In this document: in pieces, positions 33,035-55,392 of the stretch
How the letters are laid out: every line of letters starts with the position of its first letter
Position numbering within the stretch: position 1 is the first letter of the stretch
Virus record (IMG/VR): IMGVR_UViG_3300014204_000107
Location: 43,468 to 107,467 of that record
DNA length: 64,000 bases
Reading direction: 5' to 3' (one strand)
Origin: a virus
Taxonomy: Duplodnaviria > Heunggongvirae > Uroviricota > Caudoviricetes
Program-made: the position numbers and the translations under genes
Notes under the pieces: model-generated
Databases searched by the model: none
What the model was told of the DNA's origin: nothing
The model's input: the letters and a program-made list of their open reading frames with translations, nothing else

Positions 33035-33107
33035 GCATAGGTAGATTTAATTGGTAAAATCCCTTCATTTTAGGAGGAAGATGGTGGTTCGATTCCACCT
33101 CTATGCA
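33035..33107 (+). tRNA. tRNA-Lys (anticodon UUU), no encoded CCA
   Basis: 7-bp acceptor (GCATAGG/TCTATGC), D-arm GATT/AATC with GG loop, anticodon loop AUUUUAG (U33, A37), T-arm GGTGG-TTCGATT-CCACC; N26 register ambiguous. Confidence 0.55.
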
Positions 33108-38274: not shown

Positions 38275-39180
38275 ATGACAACAACAGAATTAAAAACTAT
38301 TTTATCTAATCATAAATTATGGTTAAATGGTAAAAAAAATGGAGTTTGTGCCGATTTAGGAGGTGTTGATTTAAGCGGTGCTAATTTAAGCAATGCTAAT
38401 TTAAGATATGCTAATTTACGCGGTGCTAATTTAAGCTATGCTAATTTAAGATGTGCTAATTTAAGCGGTGCTAATTTAAGCGGTGCTAATTTAAGCAATG
38501 CTAATTTACGCGGTGCTAATTTAAGCAATGCTAATTTAAGCAATGCTAATTTACGCGGTGCTGATTTAAGCGGTGCTGATTTAAGCGATGCTGATTTAAG
38601 CAATGCTGATTTAAGCAATGCTGATTTAAGCAATGCTGATTTAAGCAATGCTGATTTAAGCAATGCTGATTTAAGCAATGCTGATTTAAGCAATGCTAAT
38701 TTAAGCGGTGCTAATTTAAGCGGTGCTAATTTAGGCGGTGCTGATTTAAGCGGTGCTAATTTACGCGGTGCTAATTTACGCGGTGCTAATTTAAGATATA
38801 CTAATTTAAGCGGTGCTAATTTAAGCAATGCTAATTTACAAAATATTTTAATTAATGAATTATCAGCGTTCATACCATTATCGTGCCCCGAGGAAGGAAG
38901 TTTTATTGCATTTAAAACCGCGCAGAATCATATTATTAAATTATTAATACCAGAAGACGCAAAACGGAGTTCGGCAACATCATATAAATGTAGAGCATCA
39001 AAGGCAAAAGTACTTGAAATTAGTGATGAACTATCAAGCATACAATCTGATTATGATAACAACTTTGTCTATGCTGTTGGTGAAACAATTGAAGTAGATA
39101 ATTTTGATGAGTGTAGATGGAATGAATGCTCAACTGGAATACACTTTTTTATGTCTAAAGAACTTGCAAGGCAATATTAA
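38275..39180 (+). CDS. pentapeptide-repeat protein (about 35 A[ND]L[SR]xA repeats) with C-terminal globular domain
   Basis: Tandem pentapeptide repeats; N-terminal [13 protein letters not shown] shared with 15698. Confidence 0.65.
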
Positions 39181-41758: not shown

Positions 41759-41809
41759 CTTATGATTGTCAAGCAGAAATTGCAACCAAGCAATCCTAAT
41801 AACTAATAT

Positions 41810-42103
41810 ATGCAATGGTTTGTTTATATAGTAGAATGCAATGATAATACCTTATATACAGGTATAACTAACAATATAGAGCTGCGCATACAAAAGCATA
41901 ATACAAAAAAAGGAGCAAAATATACGAAAGCAAGACTGCCAGTCAAACTAATATATAATCAAGAGTGTGCAAGCAAATCGGCAGCCCTAAAAGAAGAATA
42001 TAGAATCAAGCAACTAACAAAAAAGGAAAAGCTAGAATTAATAAGAAATTGCAACCAAACAACCCCAATATATGAACAAGGCAGTACAAATAACAATTAT
42101 TGA
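41810..42103 (+). CDS. GIY-YIG nuclease-domain protein (small stand-alone, YIVECNDNTLYTGITNN…R…H…KGAKYT)
   Basis: GIY…YIG core with conserved R, H, and KGAKYT. Confidence 0.55.
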   Translation: MQWFVYIVECNDNTLYTGITNNIELRIQKHNTKKGAKYTKARLPVKLIYNQECASKSAALKEEYRIKQLTKKEKLELIRNCNQTTPIYEQGSTNNNY

Positions 42104-42290
42104 AACAGAAGACTGGACATCCAGCACTCCAATAGGTAGGTATATTGTTATAGTAAAAGTAACACCAGAATTTATGCAGGAGCCAGAACATATTGTGAGC
42201 CACAGTGAAAAGGCAGAATATATAGCGCAAGAAATTAAAGAAGAATTCTTAAAGAAATTGCAACCGAGCAAGCCAACTACCACATATTAA
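42072..42290 (+). CDS. small hypothetical protein
   Basis: ORF. Confidence 0.35.
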   Translation: MNKAVQITIIETEDWTSSTPIGRYIVIVKVTPEFMQEPEHIVSHSEKAEYIAQEIKEEFLKKLQPSKPTTTY

Positions 42291-43005
42291 TAAAAACCTA
42301 GAAATTGCAACCAAACTATATAATTTGGAAATTGCAACCAATTACCTAATATACAATAAGGTAATAATATTATAGCAAATAACTAAATACCAAGAAATTG
42401 CAACCAACAAGAATTTGCAACCAACCAACTAATCCATACCGTATAAATGACAGTAGGTAAATAGTACAAATAGCCTGCTCCAGAAATTGCAACCAACGTA
42501 AAAATCAATAGGTTGGGGAGACGGAGGACGGTGTCTGGCTTGACTGTGCATCTTTATTCAAGCGTCTACCTAATAAGACCACGACCGACCTAACCATTTA
42601 AATTGCATAACCAGTTTTAGCTGTTACGCATATAGCGGTAACCACATAGCAATAATGTCGCGGATGCATATTATTCTTCCAGCCTAATTGCAGTAGGTAG
42701 CTCGTGTTTCTTCCATATGTTATATTATACGCTATATCTATTACACTAAATAGAACGTAATAGTTTGCGTTATTGCTATAGGTGTCCTGCACCCATCCCG
42801 GAATAGATTATTCCTCGGTGTCTGCACATTGCGTTAAGTTGCTTTAATTGTGTTAGAAAACTGCGTCTTTCATACTGTTGTTCTATTGTATAAGGTAAAG
42901 GTAGGAAGAATAGTTGAGATACACAAATTTAATTTTATGCTTCGTTAGTGTTGCTTGGTGTAGGTTTATATAGTGCTATAGAAGCATAGCAGATAGATTT
43001 GGTAG

Positions 43006-43045
43006 AGTGGTATATTATTCCTATATTTGTATATAACAAAATTAA
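43006..43045 (+). promoter_or_regulatory. variant of the recurring TTTGGTAG…TTT…TATAACAA promoter/leader motif
   Basis: Motif similarity; precedes ATG 43054. Confidence 0.35.
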
Positions 43046-43053
43046 CCAAACAA

Positions 43054-43293
43054 ATGAAAGTAAAAGTTGAAGAAACGGGTAAACCCGTATTGATCCCAAT
43101 GTGTGATATGGAACCTGGGCAAATGGCAGTTGTTGTTGACGATATGGCCGGCGACAATAACAGAGACTCTATTATACTGCGCACAGAGAAAGCAATAGCT
43201 GACTTTATGGACCCTTTGCTCGATTGGGAAATAGACTGTGAATTCAAAGTGAGAATCCTTCCCAAAGGCACCAAGATTGAAATTACTGCATAA
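43054..43293 (+). CDS. small protein, tandem paralogue family member 1 (MKVKVEETGKPVLIPM…ILRTEKAIADF…LPKGTKIEITA)
   Basis: Four tandem paralogues. Confidence 0.4.
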   Translation: MKVKVEETGKPVLIPMCDMEPGQMAVVVDDMAGDNNRDSIILRTEKAIADFMDPLLDWEIDCEFKVRILPKGTKIEITA

Positions 43294-43310
43294 CAAATTA
43301 ACCCAAACAA

Positions 43311-43550
43311 ATGAAAGTAAAAATTAAAGGAGAGGCTAAACCCGCATTGATCCCAATGTATGAAATGGTGCGTGGCCAGATCGCTAGAATTGTTGATACG
43401 TGCGCCGATAGTTATAACGGTTCTATCGTATTACGCAGTGAGAAAACTATTGTCGATTTAAAATCTCATCACGTAGATTGGTGCATGACATGCACTTATA
43501 AAGTAGAACTGTTGCCAGCCGGCACGGTCATTGAATTAACCGTTGAATAA
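43311..43550 (+). CDS. tandem paralogue 2
   Basis: Shared MKVKIKGEAKPALIPM…VLRSEKTIVDL…LLPAGTVIELTV. Confidence 0.4.
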   Translation: MKVKIKGEAKPALIPMYEMVRGQIARIVDTCADSYNGSIVLRSEKTIVDLKSHHVDWCMTCTYKVELLPAGTVIELTVE

Positions 43551-43558
43551 AAAAAAAT

Positions 43559-43798
43559 ATGAAAGCAAAAATAGTAAAAGAGGCTGCGCCTGCAGTCATG
43601 AAGATGAATGAACTTAAACCAGGACAGGTCGCTAAGATCAATGACCCTGATATTGGCCCCCACCATATGGGCAAAGTTATACTACGGACACAGCATTCAT
43701 TGGTTGATTTAGATGATCCAATTATAGATTTCTGCTTAGGAGCCGGTTGGGATGTAGAATTGCTCCCCGCTGGGACGGTTATCAAAATTACAGTCTAA
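43559..43798 (+). CDS. tandem paralogue 3
   Basis: Shared motifs. Confidence 0.4.
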   Translation: MKAKIVKEAAPAVMKMNELKPGQVAKINDPDIGPHHMGKVILRTQHSLVDLDDPIIDFCLGAGWDVELLPAGTVIKITV

Positions 43799-43866
43799 CT
43801 GATAAACGCAAGAAAAATGAATACAATCAAAGTTAAAAGACCCAAGGAACTTGTGCGGGACAAAAA

Positions 43867-44064
43867 ATGAAAATTGGCAAATTTGGCCAGATTAAAGAGG
43901 GATTTTATAAAGACCATATTGTATTGCGTGCTGATAGCAGCATATGGATTGATTTGACAGACCCGGAATACAATTGGACTAATGGCATTACATATCCTGT
44001 TGACGCACGGATATTGCTGGTTGGCACCACACTTGAGTTGGTTATTGGTAATAGTGCCATCTAA
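43867..44064 (+). CDS. tandem paralogue 4 (divergent, shorter)
   Basis: HIVLRADSSIWIDL…LLVGTTLELVIG resembles the family C-terminus. Confidence 0.35.
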   Translation: MKIGKFGQIKEGFYKDHIVLRADSSIWIDLTDPEYNWTNGITYPVDARILLVGTTLELVIGNSAI

Positions 44065-45034
44065 GCATTAGTGCTAATTCGATTTTTTATTTTTGGAAGA
44101 CTATATATTATAGAATAGGGTATCTGTGGTATTATACCAGCGCACCTTAATGCTAAGCTATCGTTAAGGGTTAATGCGGGTACATAAAGAGGCTAGCGAA
44201 TGCCATTACGCTATATTAATGTTGCCGTAACAGCGGGTGCGTTAGTCCTGCTCGGGCCGTTGGTAGACAGGCGAAACGTTTTTTGTAGTGTGGCGGCTAT
44301 AAATCGTATGGGGCCAGACTTAGATACGCTGGTTGCAGATCTAAGCATATACCACATTTAATGGGTGGCTTTATTATTTGGTAAGCAGGGTTGCCAGCCT
44401 TGTATGTTGCATATAATCATTGAAATATGCTAGTGTAACTCATGCAAGCAATGAGGTTTAGGTATAGCATGGCTACCAACTGTGTATGTTGCGCGTATAA
44501 CATTTATAAAACGTGATAGTTTGCATGTTTGCTCGATAAAACATTGCATATACATTGCGCTAGCTGCATGAATTTTGAATCATCGGCTAGATATTTCTGT
44601 CTTTGGTCGTTGCATAATATGCTATAAAATACTATACACAATAGATTTATAGTTTAGAAGGGGTATTGGATATATTTTCGGCAAAATTTCTTAAAAAATA
44701 TGATAATAAAAACTCAGGGCGCGCGGATATTTTTACTCATATAAGATAGTTCCTATGCTCGATTTGAATAGTATTTAGTGTGCGCATATAGCCGATATGG
44801 GAAAATAATCAAATAATTTCATTTCGCGGGATTTTTAATACTGTTGGTATATGTGCTTCGGTATTTGCTGGATTGCTACAGATATTTAGAAAAGTTTGAT
44901 AAAAAAATGCCATGGTCGATAAAAATTAATTCGAGCGTTCTTATTGCGTTATATAATAGAATCGAAGTTATGGTTGGCGCGTGGCTGTATGCGTACGCAT
45001 GTGCGTGTACATATAATATAGGTGCACCAAAAAT

Positions 45035-45085
45035 AATTTGGTATTCTGGTATAATTTACTTACCTTTATTCTATAACAATAAAAG
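45035..45085 (+). promoter_or_regulatory. recurring promoter/leader motif (TTTGGTAT…CTTACCTTTATTCTATAACAATAAA)
   Basis: Motif; precedes ATG 45095. Confidence 0.45.
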
Positions 45086-45094
45086 ACAATTTAA

Positions 45095-45341
45095 TATGAA
45101 AACAAATTTTAGACCTATTTACGAAATTGCTCGCGAGATAAGGAGTGATTGGAAAAACGTATATTATGGCGCCGTGCCATATTTGGATGCTATGCGTTCC
45201 ATAACAAACATAACCGATGCTTATTATGCTGACTCAGCAAAAAGCGTTGTGTTGTATTTCCTTGCCAATGCCAATACCTGGAAAGGTGAGGTTGCTCGCA
45301 GAATTAAGAAAGAATTAAATGATATGTGCAAATACAGGTAA
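45095..45341 (+). CDS. small hypothetical protein
   Basis: Start chosen downstream of promoter motif (ORF-track ORF begins 44844). Confidence 0.35.
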
Positions 45342-45412
45342 TTAGATCTGCTCGACGTTCTTTTTATAACTATATTGGTATATAAACAAGTATGAACGTC
45401 GAGCAGATCTAA
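45342..45412 (+). repeat. 19-bp perfect inverted repeat (TTAGATCTGCTCGACGTTC / GAACGTCGAGCAGATCTAA) with 33-nt loop; the right arm matches the 21-nt motif GAACGTCGAGCAGATCTAACC
   Basis: Read directly; starts one base after stop codon of 45095-45341. Confidence 0.6.
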
Positions 45413-45447
45413 CCTTATCAAGCTAAATTTTTAAAATAATAAATATC

Positions 45448-45630
45448 ATGACAAAGAAAGAATTTAATGCATTAGCATTTGCTAACGGTTACGAACCCCG
45501 CTACAACGGAAAAGAAGGTACTATGTACTTAACTGCTAAGCCGGCAAGAAGGGTTACTGTGAATGCAAACTTTAAGAAGGAAGTAAAGGCACTTGACCTG
45601 GCTTTTACAGTAAAGTTTGAAACTGAATAG
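45448..45630 (+). CDS. small hypothetical protein
   Basis: ORF. Confidence 0.4.
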   Translation: MTKKEFNALAFANGYEPRYNGKEGTMYLTAKPARRVTVNANFKKEVKALDLAFTVKFETE

Positions 45631-45653
45631 TGGCATTATTGGCATATAAAATA

Positions 45654-45703
45654 AATTAGGTAGGTTGAGAATTTCTTCCTACCTTTATCTTGTAACAATA
45701 AAT
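45654..45703 (+). promoter_or_regulatory. recurring promoter/leader motif
   Basis: TTAGGTAGGTTGAGAATTTCTTCCTACCTTTATCTTGTAACAATAAA before ATG 45715. Confidence 0.45.
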
Positions 45704-45714
45704 AAATAAAAAAC

Positions 45715-46698
45715 ATGAAAACAAATTCAGTTAACGATTACGTTAGCTTTCTTCGCAAGAATGCTCCAACTTCCTTTTCGGAACGTGCGCTCAATAAGTA
45801 TGTATATGGAATTGAAATTGCAGATGGCGGCACGTACAAGAAATATAAAGAATTGTTAAGACGTGCAGTAAGTAAGGGATTGGTTGAAGTTATTCATGTT
45901 ACCGGAAAACGCCACAGGCTCGAATATAAATTTTCGACACAACCTTTGATCATGCCCAATTTTAGACACAGGGTGATGGAAATCCTTGGACTCAGGTATG
46001 GCGCGTATCTCAGTGTGTTTTCAGACCGGCGCAAGGGCAACAGGTTCCGTGTTAAGTTTTGGAATGAAGATGCTACTCCTGCACAAATGAACGAAATTGA
46101 GAAGTTAAGCAAGCATGTTAAGAAAGTCTATAGGTACAGTGGTTCGCTGTGTATCGTGCTTGATTGCAGAATGCGTGACTTAATTAATTACAATGATACA
46201 TATATTACGCGTCTGGAACTGAGGGCAATGGTAACATACATTCCTGGTAATTGTTCACCTCTCCCGGCAAAGAAAGCTGAACCTGTAGATAAATTTGACT
46301 TTTTGAAGAAAGCACATGCAGAAGGCAAAACCATTGAACTGTATTTTGGAGAAAAATGGCAAACCATTCTAAACCCATTATTTGATGATGACTTCTGCAA
46401 CTATCGCATTAAGTCAGATGATAAATTTGCTGACTTACAGAAAGCGTATGATGCCGGGGATAAAATTGAAGTTTTGCTCTTAGATGGTACTTGGTGTGAT
46501 ATTGTAGAACCAGGTTGGTCGCCAGAATACAAATATCGTGTTAAGACAGCACCAAAAAACATGCCTAAATCCGTTGCTAAAAGCAAAGAAAGCATCCTTG
46601 AAGAAATTGAACTGTTGGTAAAACAATTGCCAAAAGGCACTACTTGCAGACTGGTTCTCCCCGTTACTACAATTGCAACATATAATTATACATCATAA
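45715..46698 (+). CDS. hypothetical protein; C-terminus paralogous to 46907-47473
   Basis: Shared …EI(E/K)…VK(Q/R)LP(K/V)GTT… C-terminal block. Confidence 0.45.
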   Translation: MKTNSVNDYVSFLRKNAPTSFSERALNKYVYGIEIADGGTYKKYKELLRRAVSKGLVEVIHVTGKRHRLEYKFSTQPLIMPNFRHRVMEILGLRYGAYLSVFSDRRKGNRFRVKFWNEDATPAQMNEIEKLSKHVKKVYRYSGSLCIVLDCRMRDLINYNDTYITRLELRAMVTYIPGNCSPLPAKKAEPVDKFDFLKKAHAEGKTIELYFGEKWQTILNPLFDDDFCNYRIKSDDKFADLQKAYDAGDKIEVLLLDGTWCDIVEPGWSPEYKYRVKTAPKNMPKSVAKSKESILEEIELLVKQLPKGTTCRLVLPVTTIATYNYTS

Positions 46699-46906
46699 TA
46701 GCATTAGCCACTCTATAATATGCAAATAGAGCAAAGGTAAGTAAAATTTTCGATATTATGTTAATGGTGTTGAATTTTTACTTACCTTTATATTATGGCA
46801 TTGAAGGTTACAATAAAATGTAACCGTCCGTGGGGATAACGCGAAAATAATAACGCTGGAAAGTTCAATTCTTTCCCTTGCCACAAAGAACAAAATAAAA
46901 TAAAAT

Positions 46907-47473
46907 ATGAAATCAGATTTAACACGCGCCGTAGAGAAAATTCTTAAAGCTAATAACAGTCCTTACTTTAGCATTCGTTATACGAATACTCCATGCTGGA
47001 CTGGCAGACTTGGTGTTCATTACAGTATTGACCCCAATTGCAAGCCAATAATGCCACTTAATTTAATTGCTGCAAGGATTGCTGAATTATCCAGGGGCAT
47101 TCACCACGCAGTTCAATCGAATCCGTTTACTATATCAGTTTATGTTGGCGAAGATTCTGGCTATCATATCGTTGACGAAGTAGCAATTGATGCTGGCAAA
47201 CACTTCTTAATATTAGATACATTGCGAGCAGTAAGGGCTGCAGAAACAAGGAATGAACGCATTGTTACAGAAGGACTCGTAATTCCCAAAAAGAAAATAT
47301 CTGGCGTAAGTACTGAAAAAGATGTGGTGGTTGAGGTGCAGAGTGGATTAGAAAGCTTTGACAATGCTATTAATGAAATTAAAGCTATTGTAAAACGGCT
47401 TCCGGTAGGAACTACTGTTAATATGGTTATCCCATATACTCAGCGGTTGAAGATTAACATTGAATGTAAATAA
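46907..47473 (+). CDS. hypothetical protein
   Basis: ORF. Confidence 0.45.
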   Translation: MKSDLTRAVEKILKANNSPYFSIRYTNTPCWTGRLGVHYSIDPNCKPIMPLNLIAARIAELSRGIHHAVQSNPFTISVYVGEDSGYHIVDEVAIDAGKHFLILDTLRAVRAAETRNERIVTEGLVIPKKKISGVSTEKDVVVEVQSGLESFDNAINEIKAIVKRLPVGTTVNMVIPYTQRLKINIECK

Positions 47474-47521
47474 TAGAGCATCAAACAAAGACAGCTTGCT
47501 TAAATAGCACAAAGAAAAATA

Positions 47522-47575
47522 AATTTGGTAGATTGAGAAAATGTTCTTATATTTACTTACCGTTTAACACAAACA
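47522..47575 (+). promoter_or_regulatory. recurring promoter/leader motif (variant)
   Basis: TTTGGTAGATTGAGAAAATGTTCTTATATTTACTTACCGTTTAACAC before ATG 47601. Confidence 0.4.
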
Positions 47576-47600
47576 AATAATTAAACAAATCCCATAACAA

Positions 47601-48029
47601 ATGGAAAACACTGAAAGAGAAGCTGTAACCAGCACCGAAACTGTTGAAGCAACAGTTGAAACCAAAGTATCAACCCCGAAGGCACCTAAAGCCCCTAAGG
47701 CACCGAAAGCCATTGCTCCTGTTGCTGAAGTCATTGATACTCCTGCGGCAGTTGAAGCTGAAGCCCCGGCAAAGAAAAGGCGTGGAAAAACCCCAACCAA
47801 AGCACAGATCCATTCTGTTGCCGATGTCATTGCCTTTGTGAAAAACACTGCTGATGAAAAGGCCGTTGCCAAAAGGCTCAAGGAAGTCTTTTCCAGCAAG
47901 TTCACTGAACAGAAAGAACTGATCATTGAAGCGCTGCACCCGGAAATGAATTCTGCCACGCCTAAGAGGCAGGAATGGTACAAAGCCGTTGGGTCGAAGA
48001 TCCGCAATGCCCGCAAACCGAAGTTCTAG
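47601..48029 (+). CDS. Lys/Ala/Pro-rich basic protein (KAPKAPKAPKA repeats), histone H1-like / nucleoid-associated candidate
   Basis: Composition; GC-rich relative to surroundings. Confidence 0.45.
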   Translation: MENTEREAVTSTETVEATVETKVSTPKAPKAPKAPKAIAPVAEVIDTPAAVEAEAPAKKRRGKTPTKAQIHSVADVIAFVKNTADEKAVAKRLKEVFSSKFTEQKELIIEALHPEMNSATPKRQEWYKAVGSKIRNARKPKF

Positions 48030-48279
48030 GAACTGCCACCGTTAGGGTGGAATGAGTAAAGGCCGCCGGTTATGCAGTTTGCAGCCGGTGGCCCTTTTAA
48101 TAAAGCAGCTTATAAGATAATAGAACATTTGCTCTTCGCCAGAGAAGCAGCAAATCCCTGGGTGGATCGGGGTATAAGCACAATTAAAAATAATAAGATA
48201 ATGCTGTTACAGCAGGTTCATGTTTCTTCTTATTGTTATAGAGTGTGCCGGCTTCGCGCCGGCATTTCTCTGATATTTT

Positions 48280-48326
48280 ATTTGTTGGTTAGAGAAATTC
48301 TTCCTACCTTTATTCTATAACAATAC
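48280..48326 (+). promoter_or_regulatory. recurring promoter/leader motif
   Basis: TTGGTTAGAGAAATTCTTCCTACCTTTATTCTATAACAATA before ATG 48331. Confidence 0.45.
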
Positions 48327-48330
48327 GAAC

Positions 48331-50958
48331 ATGAACAATCCTATCACAAAGAAAGGTACCTTTAAGTACGCAATTTCTGACTTTTGGTTATCCGAAAGCA
48401 CAAAGCGTATTTTAGAAGACTATGAACCGAAGGAGCATGCCTTTTATGTACGGGGTATGATTAAGAAAGCGGTGGAAGACTTTATTCGTATTATCAATAA
48501 CGGTGATGGCTCCGTGAAGGTTACATATAGGACTGATGGCAGTGAAACGTCATACAGTTCGGCCAACGCTATTGAATGTAAGAGTGTATGCGTCCAGTCT
48601 GATATATTTGACTTAGATGTTACCGTAGGTCTTGCTTTACATGAGGCAATGCACATCCGTGATACTATCTTTGTCACTATCAACCCATTGTTCCAATCCT
48701 TTCTTTTAAAGCATGATTGTAGTGATTTAATTATTGCTCATTTAGTTGATGCATATATCGACTTCCTGCATGATGAAATGATGTATGACTATGCTTATAT
48801 TGCAAGGAAGCTGACTGGGCAGTCAATGTCATATTTTGACATTACCAATGCAGTTACTGCCGCAATTACCAAGCACACTAATAAAGTTACTTTAAATAGC
48901 ATGTTCCAGAGTAGTGGTTATGTAAGAATGCGTAACTGTTACGAAAGAATAAACAAGCTTTCCAATGGCAAAGAGCTGTTGCCAAAGATTCTTAAAATAA
49001 CTGGCGGCATACTTAATTGGATCGAGGATCGTAGGATTGACCATAAAGCTAGTGTTATTGCTCCCGGCTATGTTGGCTATTATGATGCATTATACGATAA
49101 GTATTTCTTTGCACCAAACATGCGTGATATTGTAAAAAATAACATTACAAACGTGCCAACCCTTAAGCATTACGAATTATACATCACAAACTTATGGGAA
49201 TCGCAGAAATATGTTAACGAAGTCCCAGCATTAGGTGATATTGTTAAAGCCATTGATCTTCCGAATATTGGCAGGCTTGAAGACACTATTGATTCATTAG
49301 CTCTCACCTTCGAAGTAATGGCAATCATTCTCGAAGAAATGCTTTCACGTAAGAAGAAAGAAGAACAGGAGCCTGCAGAAAAAGAAACGAAGAAAGATAA
49401 GCTTGGAGAAAGCAAAGATGGCAAACGTGAAGAGAACGACAGTAATGACAATACTGAAATCGATAACGAAAATAGCGAAGACGGCCCTTCTAAAGAAGAT
49501 GATGACGAAAGCGAACCAAGCAATAAAGACAACAAATTCGATACAGAGATTGAAGAAGCTGGCGATGACAATGTTACTGCTGACGAGTTTGACGAAAACA
49601 ACGAAGACGCCCCAGAAGATAACTACGAAGACGCCCCAGAAGATAACTACGAAGATAACTACGAAGGTAACGACGAAAGTCCCGACCATACAGAAAACGA
49701 TGGTAGTGAGGTAGAACATACTGATGATGATACTTCTGGCACTGAAACTGCTGAAGACGATATTACTGATGCAGTAGTTCCCGACAATGATACTGAAAAT
49801 AGCAATACTACTGAAGGAGACAACGGCGATGAATCAAATAGTGCCGGTTCCAATGGTGGTAATGATTTAGACAGTTTTCCTGCTGAAGACAACAATATCA
49901 TTGATGACGAAGCAGACAAAATGCTTGGAGAGCAAAAGAAATTTGCTGAAGGTGATATCGAGCGTTCTGACGTTAATGAAATGGAGGAGAAGATTATTAA
50001 TGCTACCGCTACTGGCGATGTGGATTTGAGAGTATCAAAGGATGGTGCCAACCGCAATGTTAGTTATGTTTGCAATAACTTTAACAAGCAGAACGTAGAG
50101 ATGCTCAGTAATATGTGCGAATGTGTTAGTATGTGGACAACAGAAGACTCACGCGAGCAGCAAAATATCCTGAAAGCGCTGAAATATGGTGAAAAACTTG
50201 CACAGTTGATTACTATTCGCAACGAAGACAGGGAACTGGTTAATCCTAACCAGGAAAGCGGTAAAGTATTCAAAAGGCACCTTTACAAAATTGCTGGACA
50301 TAATAGTAAGGTTTTCTATAGCGTTCTCAGTGAAAACTTTGAACCCGTAACTATGCACATTTCAATTGACGCAAGTGGTTCAATGGCCTCTGGGTCAAGC
50401 TTTAGCAATGCTATTTTTATGGCCGTTGCTTTAGCAGTAGTTGCTGACAAGACTAAGAATGTTGAAGTTGTTATTTCATTCCGCGGTGAATCTTCTGGTA
50501 AATACAGAAGCGCATTTACTTCGGGTGCTGAATACAGCACTAAAGGAAAGATTCCTTTTATGTTGATTGCATATGATAGCCGCGTTGATAAACTTTCTAA
50601 AATCAAGCAAGTATTTAGGTATATCCATGCTAACAGTTACACTCCTGAAGGACTTTGTTTTGCCGCCATTTTGGAAGAACTCATTGAATACAGCAAAGAT
50701 TCAAGGTCTTACTTTATCAACATTAGTGATGGTATGCCGTGTTTCTACGAATATGCTGGGCAGAAGGCGTTAGAACATACAAGGAAACAAGTCGATAAAA
50801 TGCGCAAGGCAGGCATCAATATTATGGCATTTTTTATTGGCAATGAATATGGGCTTTCTAATTTTAAATATATGTATGGTAAGGATGCTACCAATATAGA
50901 CGTTACAAATTTGAGAAGACTTGCTAATAACATTAACCAATTATTATTGAAAAAATAG
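48331..50958 (+). CDS. CobT-like protein: N-terminal domain, long acidic low-complexity linker (EDAPEDNYEDAPEDNYEDNYE), C-terminal vWA with MIDAS (ISIDASGSM)
   Basis: Architecture typical of cobaltochelatase CobT-like vWA partners of MoxR/CobS AAA+ ATPases. Confidence 0.5.
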   Translation: MNNPITKKGTFKYAISDFWLSESTKRILEDYEPKEHAFYVRGMIKKAVEDFIRIINNGDGSVKVTYRTDGSETSYSSANAIECKSVCVQSDIFDLDVTVGLALHEAMHIRDTIFVTINPLFQSFLLKHDCSDLIIAHLVDAYIDFLHDEMMYDYAYIARKLTGQSMSYFDITNAVTAAITKHTNKVTLNSMFQSSGYVRMRNCYERINKLSNGKELLPKILKITGGILNWIEDRRIDHKASVIAPGYVGYYDALYDKYFFAPNMRDIVKNNITNVPTLKHYELYITNLWESQKYVNEVPALGDIVKAIDLPNIGRLEDTIDSLALTFEVMAIILEEMLSRKKKEEQEPAEKETKKDKLGESKDGKREENDSNDNTEIDNENSEDGPSKEDDDESEPSNKDNKFDTEIEEAGDDNVTADEFDENNEDAPEDNYEDAPEDNYEDNYEGNDESPDHTENDGSEVEHTDDDTSGTETAEDDITDAVVPDNDTENSNTTEGDNGDESNSAGSNGGNDLDSFPAEDNNIIDDEADKMLGEQKKFAEGDIERSDVNEMEEKIINATATGDVDLRVSKDGANRNVSYVCNNFNKQNVEMLSNMCECVSMWTTEDSREQQNILKALKYGEKLAQLITIRNEDRELVNPNQESGKVFKRHLYKIAGHNSKVFYSVLSENFEPVTMHISIDASGSMASGSSFSNAIFMAVALAVVADKTKNVEVVISFRGESSGKYRSAFTSGAEYSTKGKIPFMLIAYDSRVDKLSKIKQVFRYIHANSYTPEGLCFAAILEELIEYSKDSRSYFINISDGMPCFYEYAGQKALEHTRKQVDKMRKAGINIMAFFIGNEYGLSNFKYMYGKDATNIDVTNLRRLANNINQLLLKK

Positions 50959-50965
50959 CAAATAT

Positions 50966-51012
50966 ATTTGGTGAGCTTATTATTTCTTCCTACCTTTATT
51001 TTGTAACAATTA
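50966..51012 (+). promoter_or_regulatory. recurring promoter/leader motif
   Basis: ATTTGGTGAGC…TTCTTCCTACCTTTATTTTGTAACAATTAAA before ATG 51024. Confidence 0.45.
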
Positions 51013-51023
51013 AATAAAACACC

Positions 51024-52514
51024 ATGTCAAAAGAATCAACATTAGTATTTCCTGTATCAACGGGTAATGCTGTATGGTTTATAAGCGACGACAGAAAAAC
51101 TATATTAGATGTCGTTGATCCCGGACAACAGAGAAAAGCAAAAGCCGCCGAGGCAGCTGGACAAGTTGGAATACTTGGGTGGCGCGGAAAAGTTGAAAGA
51201 GAAGTTAAAGTTAAATACATTGACAGAAGCGATCTTCGATTGTATTGGTGTGAAAATTTCACTGATTGGTTTTCGGCCATTTCATCTGATGCTGCATTAC
51301 TCTCTAATTTTAATAACAAATACAGCATTGCCAACTATTTAACTGACGGTGATGTTGATACGATGCTTAAGTTGGTTGACAACCATACAGCGGTAGTTGT
51401 ATCAGGGTTATCCGGCAATTCACAGCCGAAATCACAGAAAAAAGGTAGACCTGCTAAGAAAGCAAAGGTTTCAAATTCTGCCGGTACTGCTGCACAGATG
51501 AGAAATCAAGTGGCTGTAAGTGCTACAGTAAGTCCCGAAGATACAGCAACAGAAACTGAAGAGCTGGCGGAAGTAGCTCCTGCAGAACCGGCCAAGGCTA
51601 TCGACGTTGACTTAAGCTGTGAGAACATGGCTCAGCGACTTGCAAATTTTGCAATGGTAAAGCCCGAAGAGCTTATCATTAGCGATCTTAAATGGAAATT
51701 TTTAATCCGTTCGGTATTACGCGGAAAAAACATATTGGTAACTGGCCAGTCTGGCACAGGGAAGACCAAATCGATTAATTCAGTTGCAAAGCTGATGGTT
51801 GAAGATCACCCGTTATTCATTATTCCTTGCGGAAATACAACTGATGCAAAGAGTATTTTATTGGGCAATACCAAATACAGCCCCGAGAGAGGCACTTACC
51901 TTAGCGAATCTGAATTTGTGAAAGCAATCCAGACGCCCAATGCAATTGTATATCTTGACGAGTTTACGCGTTTACACCCGGATGGGCAGAATATATTAAT
52001 GACAGTGCTTGACCACACACAGAGGGAACTCGTATTGGACGAAGCTGAGGGATGTCCTACTATTAAAGTAGCACCTGGAGTGTGTTTCATGGCTACGGCA
52101 AATATTGGGAAACAGTATAGCGCTACAAGATCCATTGACCGTGCATTGTTAGACAGATTCAATGTTACTTTCGAAATGGAGCCATTAGAGATCATGCAGG
52201 AACTTGAACTTATCTTCATGGAATACGGCAAGCCCGCTATTAAGATGAGGAATGAAATTTGCAAGGTGCTTGACGTTATCGACTCCATTAGGAAAGACTA
52301 CAATAACGAAAATACTGAGCTTACAACCTTTATTAGCACAAGGCCAGTGCTTGAAATTGCTGGACTGTTGCTTGATGGGTTTAGCCCTCTTGAATGCATT
52401 GAAGTATGTATTTATCCGTTATACAGCGACGATGGTGGAACCGAAAGTGAACGTGCATTGGTAAAGAAGATAGTACAAAAAGCAGGCTTTGCTCCTGCTG
52501 ATCAAACGATATAA
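51024..52514 (+). CDS. CobS/MoxR-like AAA+ ATPase (Walker A GQSGTGKTKS, Walker B YLDEFTRLHPDGQNILMTVLD) with ~200-aa N-terminal extension
   Basis: AAA_5/MoxR-type motifs; adjacent to vWA partner. Confidence 0.55.
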   Translation: MSKESTLVFPVSTGNAVWFISDDRKTILDVVDPGQQRKAKAAEAAGQVGILGWRGKVEREVKVKYIDRSDLRLYWCENFTDWFSAISSDAALLSNFNNKYSIANYLTDGDVDTMLKLVDNHTAVVVSGLSGNSQPKSQKKGRPAKKAKVSNSAGTAAQMRNQVAVSATVSPEDTATETEELAEVAPAEPAKAIDVDLSCENMAQRLANFAMVKPEELIISDLKWKFLIRSVLRGKNILVTGQSGTGKTKSINSVAKLMVEDHPLFIIPCGNTTDAKSILLGNTKYSPERGTYLSESEFVKAIQTPNAIVYLDEFTRLHPDGQNILMTVLDHTQRELVLDEAEGCPTIKVAPGVCFMATANIGKQYSATRSIDRALLDRFNVTFEMEPLEIMQELELIFMEYGKPAIKMRNEICKVLDVIDSIRKDYNNENTELTTFISTRPVLEIAGLLLDGFSPLECIEVCIYPLYSDDGGTESERALVKKIVQKAGFAPADQTI

Positions 52515-52586
52515 TTAGTGTTTACTAATTGTTACGTGCAAGCGCTGGCTAGACTTTATTGTTTAGCCGGCGTAAGCATGACCAGA

Positions 52587-52622
52587 CATTTGGTAGGTAG
52601 AGAAATTATACTTACCTTTATT
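52587..52622 (+). promoter_or_regulatory. recurring promoter/leader motif
   Basis: TTTGGTAGGTAGAGAAATTATACTTACCTTTATTATATG. Confidence 0.4.
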
Positions 52623-52624
52623 AT

Positions 52625-52780
52625 ATGAAAAACACGAAGTTGACCATATCCAAAGAACAGGCATATATTGCCCACAAGACTGCTTCCCGCAGAGTTGAAA
52701 TGGAAGAAGGACTTCGTAGACCTACACATTCTGTGCATAAAAATATGAAAGCTTATTCACGCAAAATTAAACATAAATAA
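52625..52780 (+). CDS. small basic protein (51 aa, below ORF-track cut-off)
   Basis: ATG 3 nt after promoter/leader motif; Lys/Arg rich. Confidence 0.3.
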   Translation: MKNTKLTISKEQAYIAHKTASRRVEMEEGLRRPTHSVHKNMKAYSRKIKHK

Positions 52781-52921
52781 ATATTGATATGAAAGGAAAT
52801 ATTAATGCTAAAATAAAATGCCCCCTCTGCGGTAAAAAAATCCACGTAAATAATTACCAAATGCATGTTAAATCTGATAAATGTAAAAGTAGTAGAAACG
52901 AACTTAAAAAACTCTTATAAT

Positions 52922-53260
52922 ATGGCAGAATACAATTTCCGCGACCAGGCAGACATAGTTGCTCTCGCACAAGAATGTGCAGTATCATTATCGGCACAAC
53001 CGTTAATTGATTACTTTGAACGCACTACCGTCGAAAAAGAAAAAGAAGAACTGCGAACCATGGTGTTTGAAGACATAAATGAAATTCATGAAGTGGATGT
53101 CGAGCAAGCATACAAGGATAACAAATTTGTCAAAGAAGCAGTTGACGAGTTAGTTGACAACCTATATGATGGTGGCGGATTCAACAATGACAATATTGAC
53201 TATTGGATGGAATACAATGAAAGCGCAGTTGAGAATATTCTCAGCGAAGTTGAAGACTAA
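52922..53260 (+). CDS. acidic hypothetical protein
   Basis: ORF; internal Met start. Confidence 0.4.
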   Translation: MAEYNFRDQADIVALAQECAVSLSAQPLIDYFERTTVEKEKEELRTMVFEDINEIHEVDVEQAYKDNKFVKEAVDELVDNLYDGGGFNNDNIDYWMEYNESAVENILSEVED

Positions 53261-53375
53261 AATAAGCAAAGCCGGCAGGAAAAAAGGTTTATAGTACTTT
53301 GGTAGAAATCTGAAACCTTGCAATACCCATTAAGATCGACAGTAGCTACCAACAGCCGGCTATGCATTATAATAA

Positions 53376-53425
53376 ATTTGTTTGCCCGGTATAAATTACT
53401 TACCTTTATTCTATAACAATAAATA
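53376..53425 (+). promoter_or_regulatory. recurring promoter/leader motif
   Basis: TTTGTTTGCCCGGTATAAATTACTTACCTTTATTCTATAACAATAAA; followed by a 40-aa membrane mini-ORF (53432-53554). Confidence 0.4.
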
Positions 53426-53564
53426 AAAGAAATGTGTCCAACAATTTTAGGAATTACCATTGGAGTATTTGTATGCATTCTAGCAGTAGGTCTTGCTGTT
53501 TGGTTTACACGGAAATTGGAAGATGAATGTGACGATGATATAATGATTTTTTAACAATAAGAAC

Positions 53565-53819
53565 ATGATAAAAAGAGTATTAGCGTTTGACACGGAATCT
53601 ATGTCGGGCGACCCGTGTGAATTTATATTTGATTCTGAAAAAGGAATTGCCAAGCAAATAATGGATGACAGCATTGAAGATGGTGAACCAGTTACCTTTG
53701 AGGAAGCAGTTGCATGGTGGATTGAAAATCCTGCCCCAGAAGATGAAAACTTCATCTTCTTGACAGACGAACAGATGGAAGACGCGTATACCCTGTTAAA
53801 GAGCATCCTTGGCAAATAA
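53565..53819 (+). CDS. small acidic protein
   Basis: ORF. Confidence 0.4.
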   Translation: MIKRVLAFDTESMSGDPCEFIFDSEKGIAKQIMDDSIEDGEPVTFEEAVAWWIENPAPEDENFIFLTDEQMEDAYTLLKSILGK

Positions 53820-53843
53820 AGCAATAAAAATATTCTTTAAGGT

Positions 53844-53885
53844 ATTTGGTGGTTTGAGAAATTATTCCTAACTTTACCTTGTTGT
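53844..53885 (+). promoter_or_regulatory. recurring promoter motif (variant) with no ORF downstream; faces the 53.9-54.75 kb ORF-free island
   Basis: TTTGGTGGTTTGAGAAATTATTCCTAACTTTACCTTG. Confidence 0.4.
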
Positions 53886-53889
53886 TTTG

Positions 53890-54720
53890 GACGAAATACT
53901 GTCCAGAACCTATAATCCCGGAAAAGGCAATATTGCCGCAAAACTTAGATTGTTTATACACCATTTAAAAGGAGGACGCAATGGAACCACCCGGTTAGTT
54001 TAGCTTTATATATTATTATTTTATTTTGATCTTTGACATCTTGTGAATTAGTAGGTTACCATGTAGTGCTCATACTTGAATGCTTTACATACGTCCCTCG
54101 CCTCCCTGTTGTATCGTGGTTTGACCGCCATTGTTGGCCACTTTGGTTCCGATAACTGTATGAACTTCATAGACGCATACGCTTTCTGTTGTCCATAGTT
54201 CTTGGCACGCATGGAAATAACCTATTAGCTTGGATTGGCGCTGTTACTATTCCGAAATGGTAACGGGGCCTTAACAAGCACCAGTGCATAATATGCGCGT
54301 TCTCGTAAGTGCAGCCATTTATTTTCCGCCGGCCGCTCTACATTAGTAGCATGGGACCGAGCTCCGTGGCCGAATCGAGTTAAATAGCTACGCATATATG
54401 TATTGCCAGAGTGGCTGGTACCCCACTCACTCAGTTTGCTTGTAGGGAAGTAAAACCTGCAAGGTACCACATTCCGAGAAAAGGCAATACACACTGGTTT
54501 TCACGAGTGTTGATACATCTAACCCTGCCGGGGCCTAATAAAGTGGCCTTTGGTGGGGTTTTCTGTTTTAGATCGATTCTTATGACTATTTTATAGTAGA
54601 TGATGTCAGGTATGTGGTTTATATGAACGTCGAGCAGACCTCACCATTTTGATTCAAATCCAACTTTACAGATATTGGTTAGAACCAAATACTACAAACA
54701 GTATTGCAATCTAAGCAATA
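53890..54720 (+). ncRNA. ORF-free GC-elevated island directly downstream of a promoter motif; candidate large structured ncRNA
   Basis: No + strand ORF of 60 aa or more in 830 nt of an otherwise gene-dense genome; only short - strand junk ORFs; local GC clearly above flanks. Confidence 0.3.
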
Positions 54721-54725
54721 AAATA

Positions 54726-54772
54726 TATTTGGTAGTTTGATATAATTTACTTACCTTTACATATAAACAATA
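54726..54772 (+). promoter_or_regulatory. recurring promoter/leader motif
   Basis: TTTGGTAGTTTGATATAATTTACTTACCTTTACATATAAACAATAA before ATG 54779. Confidence 0.45.
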
Positions 54773-54778
54773 ACAGGC

Positions 54779-54955
54779 ATGATTTTAAAAATTGAATTTG
54801 GTGACGAAGACCTTGCTTCCTTAGCGGAAGAAAATGGACTGTCAATTGCCGACATGGTAACGGTTCTTGAGGAAATTGCAATGGATGCACTGTCTGATGA
54901 TTATGGCATTGCAGAAGCAGCAAGTGGTTATGCTGAACGAATTAAAGAAGAATAA
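54779..54955 (+). CDS. small acidic protein (58 aa, below ORF-track cut-off)
   Basis: ATG right after promoter/leader motif. Confidence 0.3.
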   Translation: MILKIEFGDEDLASLAEENGLSIADMVTVLEEIAMDALSDDYGIAEAASGYAERIKEE

Positions 54956-54956
54956 A

Positions 54957-55202
54957 ATGAACAAACCAACAACAGGAAACAGAAAAGCCAATGCGCTGAT
55001 CAATCAATTCATTGAAGAATCCGATTGCAAGCCAGAACTTAAAGATAATCTTTACGAGGCTTTGGTTGAGGCAGTGATCGAAGATTACAGTGACGAACCA
55101 AACAATATTAAGCTAATTGAAATGCAAGATATTTACGAAATAGTAGATTCCTGCATCCCAATGGAAGATTACGAACCGCAAGAAGACGAAGATGAAGAAT
55201 AA
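54957..55202 (+). CDS. small acidic protein
   Basis: ORF, internal Met start after upstream stop. Confidence 0.4.
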   Translation: MNKPTTGNRKANALINQFIEESDCKPELKDNLYEALVEAVIEDYSDEPNNIKLIEMQDIYEIVDSCIPMEDYEPQEDEDEE

Positions 55203-55392
55203 GACATACAAGGATTGGATTATATGGGGCAAAAAGGTTACAGATAAGTATATTGCTGGCAAGCAATTCATCCCCGATCCCAGTGAATACAAGGACATGG
55301 TAATTGATGCCGTTTTGGAGGAGTTGCCAAGTGTTGATAACCTTACCTATAGCGAGCTGTCAAAGGCTTATAACGAGCTAAACAGGCAATAA
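55192..55392 (+). CDS. small hypothetical protein
   Basis: ORF. Confidence 0.35.
   Translation: MKNKTYKDWIIWGKKVTDKYIAGKQFIPDPSEYKDMVIDAVLEELPSVDNLTYSELSKAYNELNRQ

What the first reader, a model, noticed from the sequence alone, without database searches (positions are those of the whole stretch)
42500..43030. Second ORF-free GC-elevated island between the iteron cluster and the tandem small-gene family
About 530 nt without plausible ORFs (only short - strand junk). It has higher GC and many short palindromes (for example GGTGTCTGGCTTGACTGTGCATC, CACATAGCAATAATGTCGCGGATGCAT). It lies directly after five iterons and is followed by a promoter-motif variant. It could be an origin-associated region (iterons plus a structured/unwinding element) or another ncRNA.
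Basis: seen in the sequence. Interest (0 to 1): 0.55.

Follow-up and report, generated by a model that had tools for sequence, protein, structure and literature searches.

The report
Divergent-promoter spacer with untranslated leftward transcript
The gene-free stretch is the spacer where two gene blocks of a 299-kb Bacteroidota-type jumbo phage meet; it holds two back-to-back promoters, one of which points backwards into about 390 bases with no gene, so it is most likely an ordinary regulatory region that makes an untranslated RNA, not a demonstrated replication origin or folded RNA.

Summary
The ORF-free stretch is real. 42291-43053 is the longest non-coding gap in the window (763 nt), with no ORF even under stop-codon recoding and no coding potential. 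The other descriptors hold less well:
- GC (0.375) equals the mean of the right half of the window; only 42500-42700 reaches 0.43.
- Palindromes and hairpins are not above shuffles.
- There is no Rfam hit and no folding signal (z -0.1 to -0.6).

The new result is a 32-nt promoter family (TTTG-N20-TACCTTTA, Bacteroidota -33/-7 type; about 11 strong + strand copies at 45037-61628). The island holds a divergent pair of it:
- A + copy (42998-43029) drives the tandem 79-aa genes.
- A minus-strand copy (42927->42896, 22.8 bits) is the only minus-strand site above noise. An ATG follows at the canonical distance, but the ORF is only 6 codons.

The island body is therefore predicted to be transcribed leftwards as an untranslated RNA of about 390 nt. 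This RNA would end at a C-rich tract plus U5 (42577-42500), just before the repeat cluster (AGAAATTGCAACCAA, 8 copies).

The origin reading has no direct support: no skew switch, no replication genes nearby, and no unstable DNA in the island. It is not excluded for the repeat cluster. All available contigs are identical and the flanking genes are ORFans, so conservation cannot be tested.

The parts
41775..42496 (+). Cluster of eight direct copies of AGAAATTGCAACCAA (invariant core GAA-TTGCAACC). Copies start at 41775, 42044, 42253, 42300, 42327, 42393, 42410 and 42482. The first two lie 23-30 nt upstream of the ATGs of the GIY-YIG gene and the 72-aa gene. Six lie in or at the edge of the intergenic gap.
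   Evidence: 17 matches with at most 1 mismatch against 3.7 expected, reached by 0 of 100 shuffles. All copies are on the + strand. Outside the cluster the 64 kb holds no exact match to AAATTGCAACC, only scattered one-mismatch matches. Spacings of the last six copies are 47, 27, 66, 17 and 72 nt, so they are irregular.
42340..42389 (.). AT-rich 50-bp spacer between the two triplets of repeats. It is the least stable duplex of the locus and is DUE-like, but it lies outside the finding's coordinates.
   Evidence: Nearest-neighbour dG is -50.5 kcal/mol, and only 0.47% of all 50-bp windows in the window are less stable.
42500..42577 (-). Predicted 3' end of the leftward RNA: an unstructured C-rich tract (the G-rich GGTTGGGGAGACGGAGGACGG on the + strand) followed by U5 at 42504-42500. 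This is a rut-like site, not a hairpin terminator.
   Evidence: this is the only C>G stretch (C/G 1.4-1.7) of the predicted RNA before the repeat cluster, and the U-run is at 42504-42500; no terminator hairpin; the last 66 nt fold at -4 kcal/mol (z +0.8). The assignment as the RNA's end is inferred.
42500..42889 (-). Body of the island: predicted untranslated minus-strand transcript of about 390 nt, running from the inferred start near 42889 to about 42500.
   Evidence: No ORF and no coding potential. Fold z -0.62. No Rfam hit. AT skew is negative over 42600-42999, the opposite of the + strand genes.
42853..42873 (-). Six-codon ORF ATG AAA GAC GCA GTT TTC TAA (MKDAVF). Its ATG lies 22 nt after the -7 box, the same distance as real genes of this promoter family. 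The same frame continues through four in-frame TAA codons to 42508.
   Evidence: Codon-usage score of that frame is -0.057 per codon, about the 95th percentile of antisense windows but below real small genes (median +0.12). The 69-codon piece has no credible homologue among 1.84 billion representatives; the only matches are repeat-inflated and 20-26 residues long.
42896..42927 (-). Minus-strand copy of the phage promoter family: -33 TTTG (42927->42924), a 20-nt spacer, then -7 TACCTTTA (42903->42896).
   Evidence: a 16-nt exact match (ATTCTTCCTACCTTTA) to the + strand copies at 48297 and 61644, and 15 nt to those at 45673 and 50984. PWM score 22.8 bits, rank 13 of all sites on both strands, the only minus-strand site above noise (next -2.0; shuffle maximum 2.4); layout of the site.
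42998..43029 (+). Plus-strand promoter of the tandem small-gene family: -33 TTTG (42998-43001), a 20-nt spacer, then -7 TATATTTG (43022-43029), which is the canonical Bacteroidota TAnnTTTG. The ATG is at 43054.
   Evidence: 12.4 bits; ATG 24 nt after the -7 box, ORF of 79 aa.
43054..44064 (+). Four tandem paralogous small genes (79, 79, 79 and 65 aa) driven by the + promoter. They are ORFans.
   Evidence: 33-49% pairwise identity to the first. (among 5.8 billion proteins only the phage's own four copies match). (positive coding potential).

Best explanation
The island is the spacer at the junction of two gene blocks of a 299-kb jumbo phage.
- The left block has low GC (about 0.33) and ordinary promoters.
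- The right block has GC of about 0.38, and its genes are driven by a highly conserved promoter family, TTTG-N20-TACCTTTA, of the Bacteroidota -33/-7 type.

The right end of the island (42896-43029) carries the first two members of that family, arranged back to back about 70 nt apart.
- The rightward promoter transcribes the four tandem small genes.
- The leftward promoter fires into the island. A 6-codon ORF sits where a gene would normally start, and nothing translatable follows.

The predicted product is an untranslated RNA of about 390 nt. It is inferred to stop by Rho-type termination at the C-rich, unstructured tract plus U5 at 42577-42500, immediately before the array of AGAAATTGCAACCAA repeats.

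This RNA runs head-on against transcription that reads out of the left block. Its most likely effect is therefore to insulate the two blocks, by transcriptional interference or antisense pairing with read-through RNA, rather than to act as a folded RNA.

Shown: the ORF-free gap, the promoter pair and its statistics, the absence of a gene downstream, and the absence of structure and of homologues. Inferred: that the promoter fires, where the RNA ends, and what the RNA does.
For: - Promoter family: defined from nine + strand copies and scanned on both strands. The minus-strand site at 42927 scores 22.8 bits, shuffles reach at most 2.4, and the next minus-strand site scores -2.0.
- Exact identity: 16 nt of the minus-strand site match four other copies exactly or nearly so.
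- What the family normally does: 11 of the 13 strongest copies are followed by an ORF of 40-875 aa starting 4-45 nt after the -7 box. The two exceptions are this site (6-codon ORF) and 53845, which precedes a structured ORF-free stretch.
- Promoter quality: the minus-strand copy matches the family better than the + copy (12.4 bits), which is the only promoter candidate ahead of the tandem gene family.
- Promoter type: the + copy has the canonical Bacteroidota -33 TTTG / -7 TAnnTTTG layout. The motif is as cited in PMC8748976 and other papers listed, and from my own knowledge of Bayley et al. 2000.
- Composition: AT skew turns negative over 42600-42999 while the + strand genes have positive AT skew, as expected if the sense strand here is the minus strand.
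- 3' end: the only C>G stretch and a U5 run sit exactly at the island's left edge.
- Module boundary: GC steps from about 0.33 to about 0.38 here, and all strong promoter copies lie to the right of this point.
- Maintenance: the promoter is intact while the sequence downstream resembles no gene of the window and no protein in 1.84 billion representatives. This argues that the promoter is maintained for its own sake.
Against: - There are no expression data, so promoter activity, start site and end are all inferred from sequence.
- No intrinsic terminator was found.
- The RNA shows no thermodynamic structure and no conservation can be measured. A purely vestigial promoter left by a lost gene therefore fits equally well with most of the observations.
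- The ATG frame has fewer stops (4 against 9-10) and a slightly higher codon score than the other frames, which hints at a decayed gene.
- The repeat cluster next door remains unexplained by this model.
Confidence: 0.45

Rival explanations
1. Relic of a lost minus-strand gene. A gene of about 120 codons once followed the leftward promoter. It has been inactivated by nonsense mutations and is decaying, and the island has no present function beyond spacing.
For: - An ATG sits at the canonical 22 nt from the -7 box and begins ATGAAA, like many genes of this phage.
- The same frame runs from 42873 to 42508 with only four stops, all TAA, against 9-10 stops in the other two frames.
- The codon score of that frame is at about the 95th percentile of antisense windows.
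- The minus strand scores better than the + strand in the Markov coding model.
- There is no structure and no motif content, as expected of neutral sequence.
Against: - The codon score (-0.057 per codon) is below the lower quartile of real small genes (+0.035).
- Four stops against about 7.7 expected is not significant. This is my own Poisson estimate from base composition, P about 0.1.
- tblastn of 400 stop-free stretches of at least 50 aa from the window finds nothing, and the 69-aa piece has no credible homologue.
- The promoter is near-perfect while the supposed gene is unrecognisable, which is odd for neutral decay of both.
Confidence: 0.25
2. Replication origin. The AGAAATTGCAACCAA repeats are iterons for a phage initiator and the AT-rich spacer at 42340-42389 is the unwinding element. 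The leftward untranslated transcript from the island activates or primes the origin, in the way that transcription acts at lambda ori, T4 oriF/oriG or ColE1 RNA II.
For: - Eight same-strand copies of a 15-mer occur only here in 64 kb.
- Two triplets of repeats flank a 50-bp stretch that is among the 0.5% least stable in the window.
- A promoter with no gene behind it points at this array from about 400 nt away.
- This is the longest non-coding gap in the window.
- There is a local minimum of fine-scale cumulative GC skew at about 42700-42800.
Against: - Repeat spacing is irregular (47, 27, 66, 17, 72 nt), and two copies sit just upstream of gene starts, like a gene-junction element.
- There is no sign change of GC skew at the kilobase scale.
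- No replication protein family appears among the flanking or larger window genes.
- The island itself is neither unstable nor structured.
- Nothing ties the motif to a known initiator.
Confidence: 0.12
3. Passive spacer or long untranslated tail. The island is simply the 3' read-through region of the left-block operon, or a spacer that keeps the strong right-block promoters away from it. The minus-strand promoter copy is inactive.
For: - No terminator-like site on the + strand between 41500 and 45000.
- No structure, no motif and no ORF.
- A second ORF-free stretch of about 970 nt (44065-45036) lies on the other side of the small genes and is equally featureless.
Against: The 22.8-bit promoter match, with intact -33 box, spacer length, -7 box and leader, is hard to obtain by chance. 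It is also stronger than the neighbouring promoter that must be active.
Confidence: 0.13
4. Structured non-coding RNA, on either strand, of a family not yet described.
For: - The stretch is ORF-free and 42500-42700 is GC-richer.
- The phage probably makes other large RNAs: 53884-54580 folds with z -3.9, and there is a Ro60 gene plus a tRNA-like element.
Against: - No Rfam match at E<=10.
- Whole-region z is -0.34, -0.14 and -0.62. In the 120-nt local scan most island windows are within +/-1, with some down to -2 and the lowest (-3.3) on the minus strand at 42900-43019, at the promoter end.
- There is no hairpin excess.
Confidence: 0.05

Closest known systems
Bacteroidota housekeeping-sigma promoters (-33 TTTG / -7 TAnnTTTG)
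   Same: Both promoters of the pair have TTTG, a 20-nt spacer and a TA..TTT(G/A) octamer. Leaders are A/C-rich with no Shine-Dalgarno sequence, as is usual in this phylum.
   Different: The phage family is conserved far beyond the two boxes (GGTAG.TAGAGAAATT...TTCC/TACT TACCTTTA TTCTATAACAA) and mostly ends in A rather than G. This suggests an added phage-specific factor or simply recent copying. That point is inference.
Phage lambda OOP RNA (promoter pO, antisense to the 3' end of cII, next to ori lambda)
   Same: A short untranslated RNA is made from a promoter that points against the flow of the neighbouring operon. It lies in the spacer beside an array of direct repeats.
   Different: OOP is 77 nt with a clear intrinsic terminator and a proven overlap with cII. 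Here the RNA is predicted only, is about 390 nt, has no hairpin terminator, and would reach the upstream gene (which ends at 42290) only if it reads through the repeat array.
Iteron-type origins (lambda ori, satellite phage P4 ori with TGTTCACC octamers, P1 and plasmid origins)
   Same: Several same-sense copies of a short motif with an invariant 8-mer core, plus an adjacent AT-rich stretch of low duplex stability.
   Different: There is no cognate initiator gene, no regular phasing and no skew switch. Two copies sit in front of gene starts. The feature lies in 41775-42496, not in the island.
Transcript-primed or transcript-activated origins (T4 oriF/oriG, ColE1 RNA II)
   Same: A promoter followed by an untranslated transcript directed toward an easily unwound region.
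   Different: This is purely a resemblance of layout. No R-loop-forming element, processing site or replication data exist here.

Membership tests
Iteron-type replication origin | Three or more direct repeats of an initiator-binding site | tested here: met
   Eight + strand copies of AGAAATTGCAACCAA at 41775-42496, reached by 0 of 100 shuffles. They lie outside the island proper.
Iteron-type replication origin | Regular, helically phased spacing of the repeats | tested here: not met
   Start-to-start spacings are 269, 209, 47, 27, 66, 17 and 72 nt.
Iteron-type replication origin | Adjacent AT-rich DNA-unwinding element | tested here: inconclusive
   42340-42389 is in the least stable 0.5% of 50-bp windows, but eight other places in the window are less stable. 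The island itself ranks only at 2.4% for 50 bp and 16.5% for 100 bp.
Iteron-type replication origin | Cognate initiator or replication genes in cis | tested here: not met
   Ten flanking genes scanned against Pfam and PHROGs give only GIY-YIG and families of unknown function. The larger genes of the window are auxiliary-metabolism genes. The flanking ORFans could still hide a novel initiator.
Iteron-type replication origin | Strand-composition switch, or a marker-frequency peak, at the site | not testable with these tools
   Only 64 kb of the 299 kb are held. Within that, cumulative GC skew rises overall with no sign change at the island. No read data are available.
Structured non-coding RNA (Rfam family or new) | Match to a covariance model | tested here: not met
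   No hit at gathering score in the window apart from one tRNA. No relevant hit at E<=10 in 42200-43200.
Structured non-coding RNA (Rfam family or new) | Folding energy below that of shuffled sequence | tested here: not met
   z is -0.34 on the + strand, -0.14 on the minus strand, and -0.62 for the predicted transcript. The positive contrast is 53884-54580 with z -3.9.
Structured non-coding RNA (Rfam family or new) | Compensatory base changes among relatives | not testable with these tools
   Four contigs from four samples are 100% identical over 42250-43060. The flanking genes have no homologues outside this phage. No relatives were found in IMG/VR or in GenBank phages.
Promoter-driven cis-antisense or untranslated RNA (lambda OOP-like) | Own promoter oriented against the neighbouring genes | tested here: met
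   The minus-strand promoter copy at 42927->42896 scores 22.8 bits and is the only minus-strand site above noise.
Promoter-driven cis-antisense or untranslated RNA (lambda OOP-like) | No translatable ORF in the transcript | tested here: met
   Only 6-codon and 17-codon ORFs follow the promoter. Coding scores are negative.
Promoter-driven cis-antisense or untranslated RNA (lambda OOP-like) | Defined terminator and overlap with a convergent gene | tested here: inconclusive
   There is no hairpin terminator. A C-rich tract plus U5 lies at 42577-42500. The nearest convergent gene ends at 42290, so overlap would require read-through.
Bacteroidota -33/-7 promoter | TTTG, a spacer of 19-21 nt, and TAnnTTTG | tested here: met
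   The + copy is TTTG-N20-TATATTTG. The minus copy is TTTG-N20-TACCTTTA, with a final A as in the other strong copies of the family.
Pseudogene | Residual similarity to a functional gene, or a residual codon signal in one frame | tested here: inconclusive
   No similarity was found. The ATG frame has 4 stops against 9-10 in the others, and a codon score at about the 95th percentile of the null but below real genes.

The most novel reading that the evidence does not exclude
The repeat array, its AT-rich centre and the gene-less leftward promoter together form the replication origin of a deep-branching Bacteroidota jumbo phage. On this reading the island's untranslated RNA acts as the origin-activating or priming transcript.
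Probability: 0.1. Interest if true: 0.6.

Novelty: new member of a known kind. Interest (0 to 1): 0.3.

Why it matters
If the reading is right, the region marks where a jumbo phage switches from one transcription regime to another. It also shows that the phage's strongest promoter type is used at least twice to make RNA with no gene behind it: here, and at 53845. That gives a concrete, cheap target for strand-specific RNA-seq. It also supplies a promoter model (TTTG-N20-TACCTTTA with conserved flanks) that can be used to annotate the rest of this otherwise ORFan-rich genome. As a candidate origin the region would matter more, because no origin is known for this kind of phage, but the present evidence does not carry that claim.

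Tried and rejected
- Rfam at gathering and at permissive thresholds on the island and on two other ORF-free stretches found nothing.
- Folding of the whole region, the predicted transcript and 120-nt windows on both strands gave no signal.
- Hidden ORFs under TGA, TAG or TAA read-through: only TAA read-through gives a 125-codon frame. I judged this a composition effect or decay, not recoding.
- A decayed paralogue of any window gene was sought with tblastn of 400 stop-free stretches of at least 50 aa; nothing was found.
- Homologues of the 69-codon piece in 1.84 billion representatives gave only repeat-inflated short matches.
- Relatives were sought in several ways:
  - blastn and tblastn against GenBank phages gave none, or only about 28% identity in one large protein.
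  - IMG/VR scans by two flanking proteins gave none.
  - Profile and single-protein searches of 5.8 billion proteins returned only the phage itself.
  - Exact-protein look-ups returned the same strain from four samples.
- A repeat-pair pattern scanned in IMG/VR gave five unrelated contigs. One temperate-phage contig has its own TTGCAACC array, with no link to this phage.
- The promoter 19-mer gave no match in IMG/VR. In metagenomes it gave 28 hits: most are one repeated element with near-identical flanks, and 2-3 are short contigs with a similar promoter. None of them holds the island.
- Similarity between the island and the other ORF-free stretches is limited to one 28-nt direct repeat (23 of 28) with 44506-44533, which is borderline.
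- Invertible-promoter idea: weak 31-nt inverted repeats (about 77% identity) at 42340-42370 and 43012-43043 flank the island. They look like promoter-like AT-rich sequence, and all three contigs spanning the island have the same orientation, so this is not supported.
- Whole-genome skew was not possible, because DNA outside the window can be fetched only within 10 kb of window genes.

Full report
**Setting**

The window is part of a roughly 299-kb phage contig that was recovered almost identically from four samples (ENA ERZ27247350, JGI 3300035208, and Logan SRR6484787 and SRR18595299).

Nearly all genes lie on the + strand. The gene content is auxiliary:
- Ro60/TROVE, SPFH, a pentapeptide-repeat protein, NAMPT, PRPP synthase, an ADP-ribosylglycohydrolase, a QueE-like radical-SAM protein, endonuclease VII and AAA ATPases.

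Gene starts lack Shine-Dalgarno sequences. Many are preceded by TAnnTTTG, the -7 box of Bacteroidota promoters (the motif is as used in papers listed, for example PMC8748976).

The phage has no close relatives in any collection searched:
- The tandem small genes and the 327-aa gene downstream match nothing but themselves among 5.8 billion proteins.
- IMG/VR scans found nothing.
- The best GenBank phage match of an 875-aa protein is 28% identical.

**Checking the observation**

The stretch is truly ORF-free.
- 42291-43053 (763 nt) is the longest non-coding gap of the window.
- The longest stop-free run in 42500-43030 is 69 codons, against 65 on average in shuffles.
- Reading through TGA or TAG opens nothing long.
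- A 3-periodic Markov score trained on the window's long genes is negative on both strands, while the adjacent small genes score +5 to +14.

'GC-elevated' holds only for 42500-42700 (0.428). The island as a whole is 0.375, which is the mean of everything to its right (0.377) and above the mean to its left (0.331). It is a step between two compositional domains, not an island.

The claimed richness in palindromes is not there.
- Palindromes of 6 and 8 nt are fewer than in dinucleotide shuffles.
- Perfect hairpins are within the shuffle range.

The 'iterons' are real.
- AGAAATTGCAACCAA occurs eight times between 41775 and 42496, always on the + strand, with an invariant core GAA-TTGCAACC.
- Outside that cluster the 64 kb holds no exact copy of AAATTGCAACC, only scattered one-mismatch matches.

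**What is in the island**

Comparing the island with the rest of the window gave the key result. 42896-42911 is an exact inverted copy of a 16-mer, ATTCTTCCTACCTTTA, that recurs on the + strand at 45673, 48297, 50984 and 61644.

That 16-mer is the -7 part of a conserved promoter family of the form aaTTTGgtag.tagagaaatt.tnccTACCTTTAttctataacaa. It has a TTTG box, a 20-nt spacer and a TA..TTTA box, which is the Bacteroidota -33/-7 layout.

A weight matrix built from nine + strand copies gave these scores:

| Site | Strand | Score (bits) |
|---|---|---|
| Eleven strong sites between 45037 and 61628 | + | 39-67 |
| 47524 | + | 23.2 |
| 42927 | - | 22.8 |
| 42998 | + | 12.4 |
| Next minus-strand site | - | -2.0 |
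| Maximum in shuffled windows | n/a | 2.4 |

So the right end of the island holds a divergent promoter pair whose -33 boxes are about 70 nt apart.
- The + promoter (TTTG 42998, TATATTTG 43022-43029) is followed 24 nt later by the ATG of the first of four tandem paralogous genes.
- The minus-strand promoter (TTTG 42927->42924, TACCTTTA 42903->42896) is followed 22 nt later by ATG AAA GAC GCA GTT TTC TAA, then by nothing translatable.

Among the 13 strongest copies, 11 precede an ORF of 40-875 aa. The two exceptions are this one and the copy at 53845.

**The predicted leftward transcript**

From an inferred start near 42889 the RNA would run through the island body.
- The body has negative AT skew over 42600-42999, the opposite of the + strand genes.
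- The only C>G stretch of the RNA (C/G 1.4-1.7) and a U5 run lie at 42577-42500, exactly the island's left edge.
- No hairpin terminator precedes the U-run, and the tract is unstructured.
- A Rho-type end at about 42500 is therefore the best guess. It is inferred, not shown.

The RNA shows no sign of being a folded RNA.
- z = -0.62 for the 390 nt, and -0.34 and -0.14 for the whole region on the two strands.
- The local scan shows nothing beyond scatter.
- There is no Rfam match.
- By contrast, the ORF-free stretch behind the other gene-less promoter (53884-54580) folds at z = -3.9, with 0 of 20 shuffles as stable.

**Functional RNA or relic?**

The 6-codon ORF's frame continues to 42508 with four in-frame stops, all TAA, against 9-10 stops in the other frames. 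Its codon-usage score is -0.057 per codon. That is about the 95th percentile of antisense windows but below real small genes (median +0.12, lower quartile +0.035).

This is a weak hint of a decayed gene. Against it:
- No gene of the window resembles the region.
- The 69-codon piece has only repeat-inflated short matches in 1.84 billion representative proteins.
- The promoter is near-perfect while the 'gene' is unrecognisable.

I rate a maintained promoter that makes an untranslated RNA above a pure relic, but not by much. Either way, the transcript would meet read-through from the left block head-on, and no + strand terminator is detectable there. The most economical function is insulation of the two blocks by transcriptional interference or antisense pairing. 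This is an inference.

**The origin reading**

Points in favour of the repeat cluster, not the island:
- Eight same-sense repeats.
- Two triplets of repeats flanking a 50-bp stretch (42340-42389) that is among the 0.5% least stable in the window.
- A gene-less promoter aimed at the array.
- The longest non-coding gap of the window.

Points against:
- Irregular spacing of the repeats.
- Two copies lie 23-30 nt ahead of gene starts, like a junction element.
- No change of sign in GC skew at the kilobase scale.
- No replication gene nearby.
- The island itself is neither unstable nor structured.

Only 64 kb of the genome are available, and all copies of the region are identical.

**Verdict**

This is an ordinary but well-defined regulatory spacer: a divergent promoter pair at a module boundary, a predicted untranslated leftward RNA of about 390 nt, and an unexplained repeat array to its left.

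Noticed in passing
window 53845-54580 (+): A strong copy of the promoter family (42.5 bits) has no ATG in the next 60 nt. It is followed by about 700 nt of ORF-free, GC-richer sequence that folds far better than shuffles (z -3.9, 0 of 20) and ends in a GC-rich hairpin plus a T-run (about 54535-54575). There is no Rfam hit at E<=1. This is a much better candidate for a large structured RNA than the island under review.
   Followed up: partly
window 44065-45036: A second ORF-free stretch of about 970 nt lies directly after the tandem small genes. The promoter at 45037-45068 and the ATG at 45096 suggest the next gene is the 81-aa ORF rather than the 144- or 165-aa call, although 44881-44977 upstream of that promoter has positive coding potential. 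The stretch has no Rfam hit and z -0.63. It shares one 28-nt direct repeat (23 of 28) with the island (42750-42777 and 44506-44533).
   Followed up: partly
window 33035-33107 (+), with 26670-28118: A tRNA-like gene (Rfam tRNA, 42.6 bits) has a 6-nt anticodon loop, AUUUUA, and ARAGORN cannot assign an anticodon. It lies 5 kb downstream of a Ro60/TROVE-vWA gene. It may be the tRNA-like module of a Y RNA (YrlA-like) rather than a decoding tRNA.
   Followed up: no
window 26357-26669: A 313-nt gene-free stretch sits just upstream of the Ro60 gene. It has a -7-like box at 26495 and no ORF, which is the usual place for a Y RNA partner of Ro60.
   Followed up: no
window 38444-38764: Nearly all differences between the window and the 299,185-bp ENA contig (34 of 35 mismatches in 14.8 kb) fall inside the pentapeptide-repeat gene. 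The two versions also differ in repeat register and gene length (301 aa against 276 aa). This is either strain variation or assembly slippage confined to the repeats.
   Followed up: partly
window 42758-42774 and 62633-62649: An exact 17-nt inverted match (TAATAGTTTGCGTTATT) links the island to the sequence just upstream of the ATG at 62654. It has the same sense as the island's minus strand. Its significance is borderline (E 0.002 within the window).
   Followed up: no
window 46699-46906: A 208-nt gap contains a weaker promoter-family copy (46759, 14.8 bits) followed only by 14- and 1-codon ORFs, about 115 nt ahead of the next gene.
   Followed up: no
L007 12330-12660 (IMG/VR 3300024272_000329) and L006: An unrelated temperate-phage contig carries four TTGCAACC copies at about 20-nt spacing, followed by four tandem copies of GGTAATCGTTTACGGAGTAT. 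This is a classic-looking iteron array that shares the 8-mer core by coincidence or through a common binding-domain type.
   Followed up: partly
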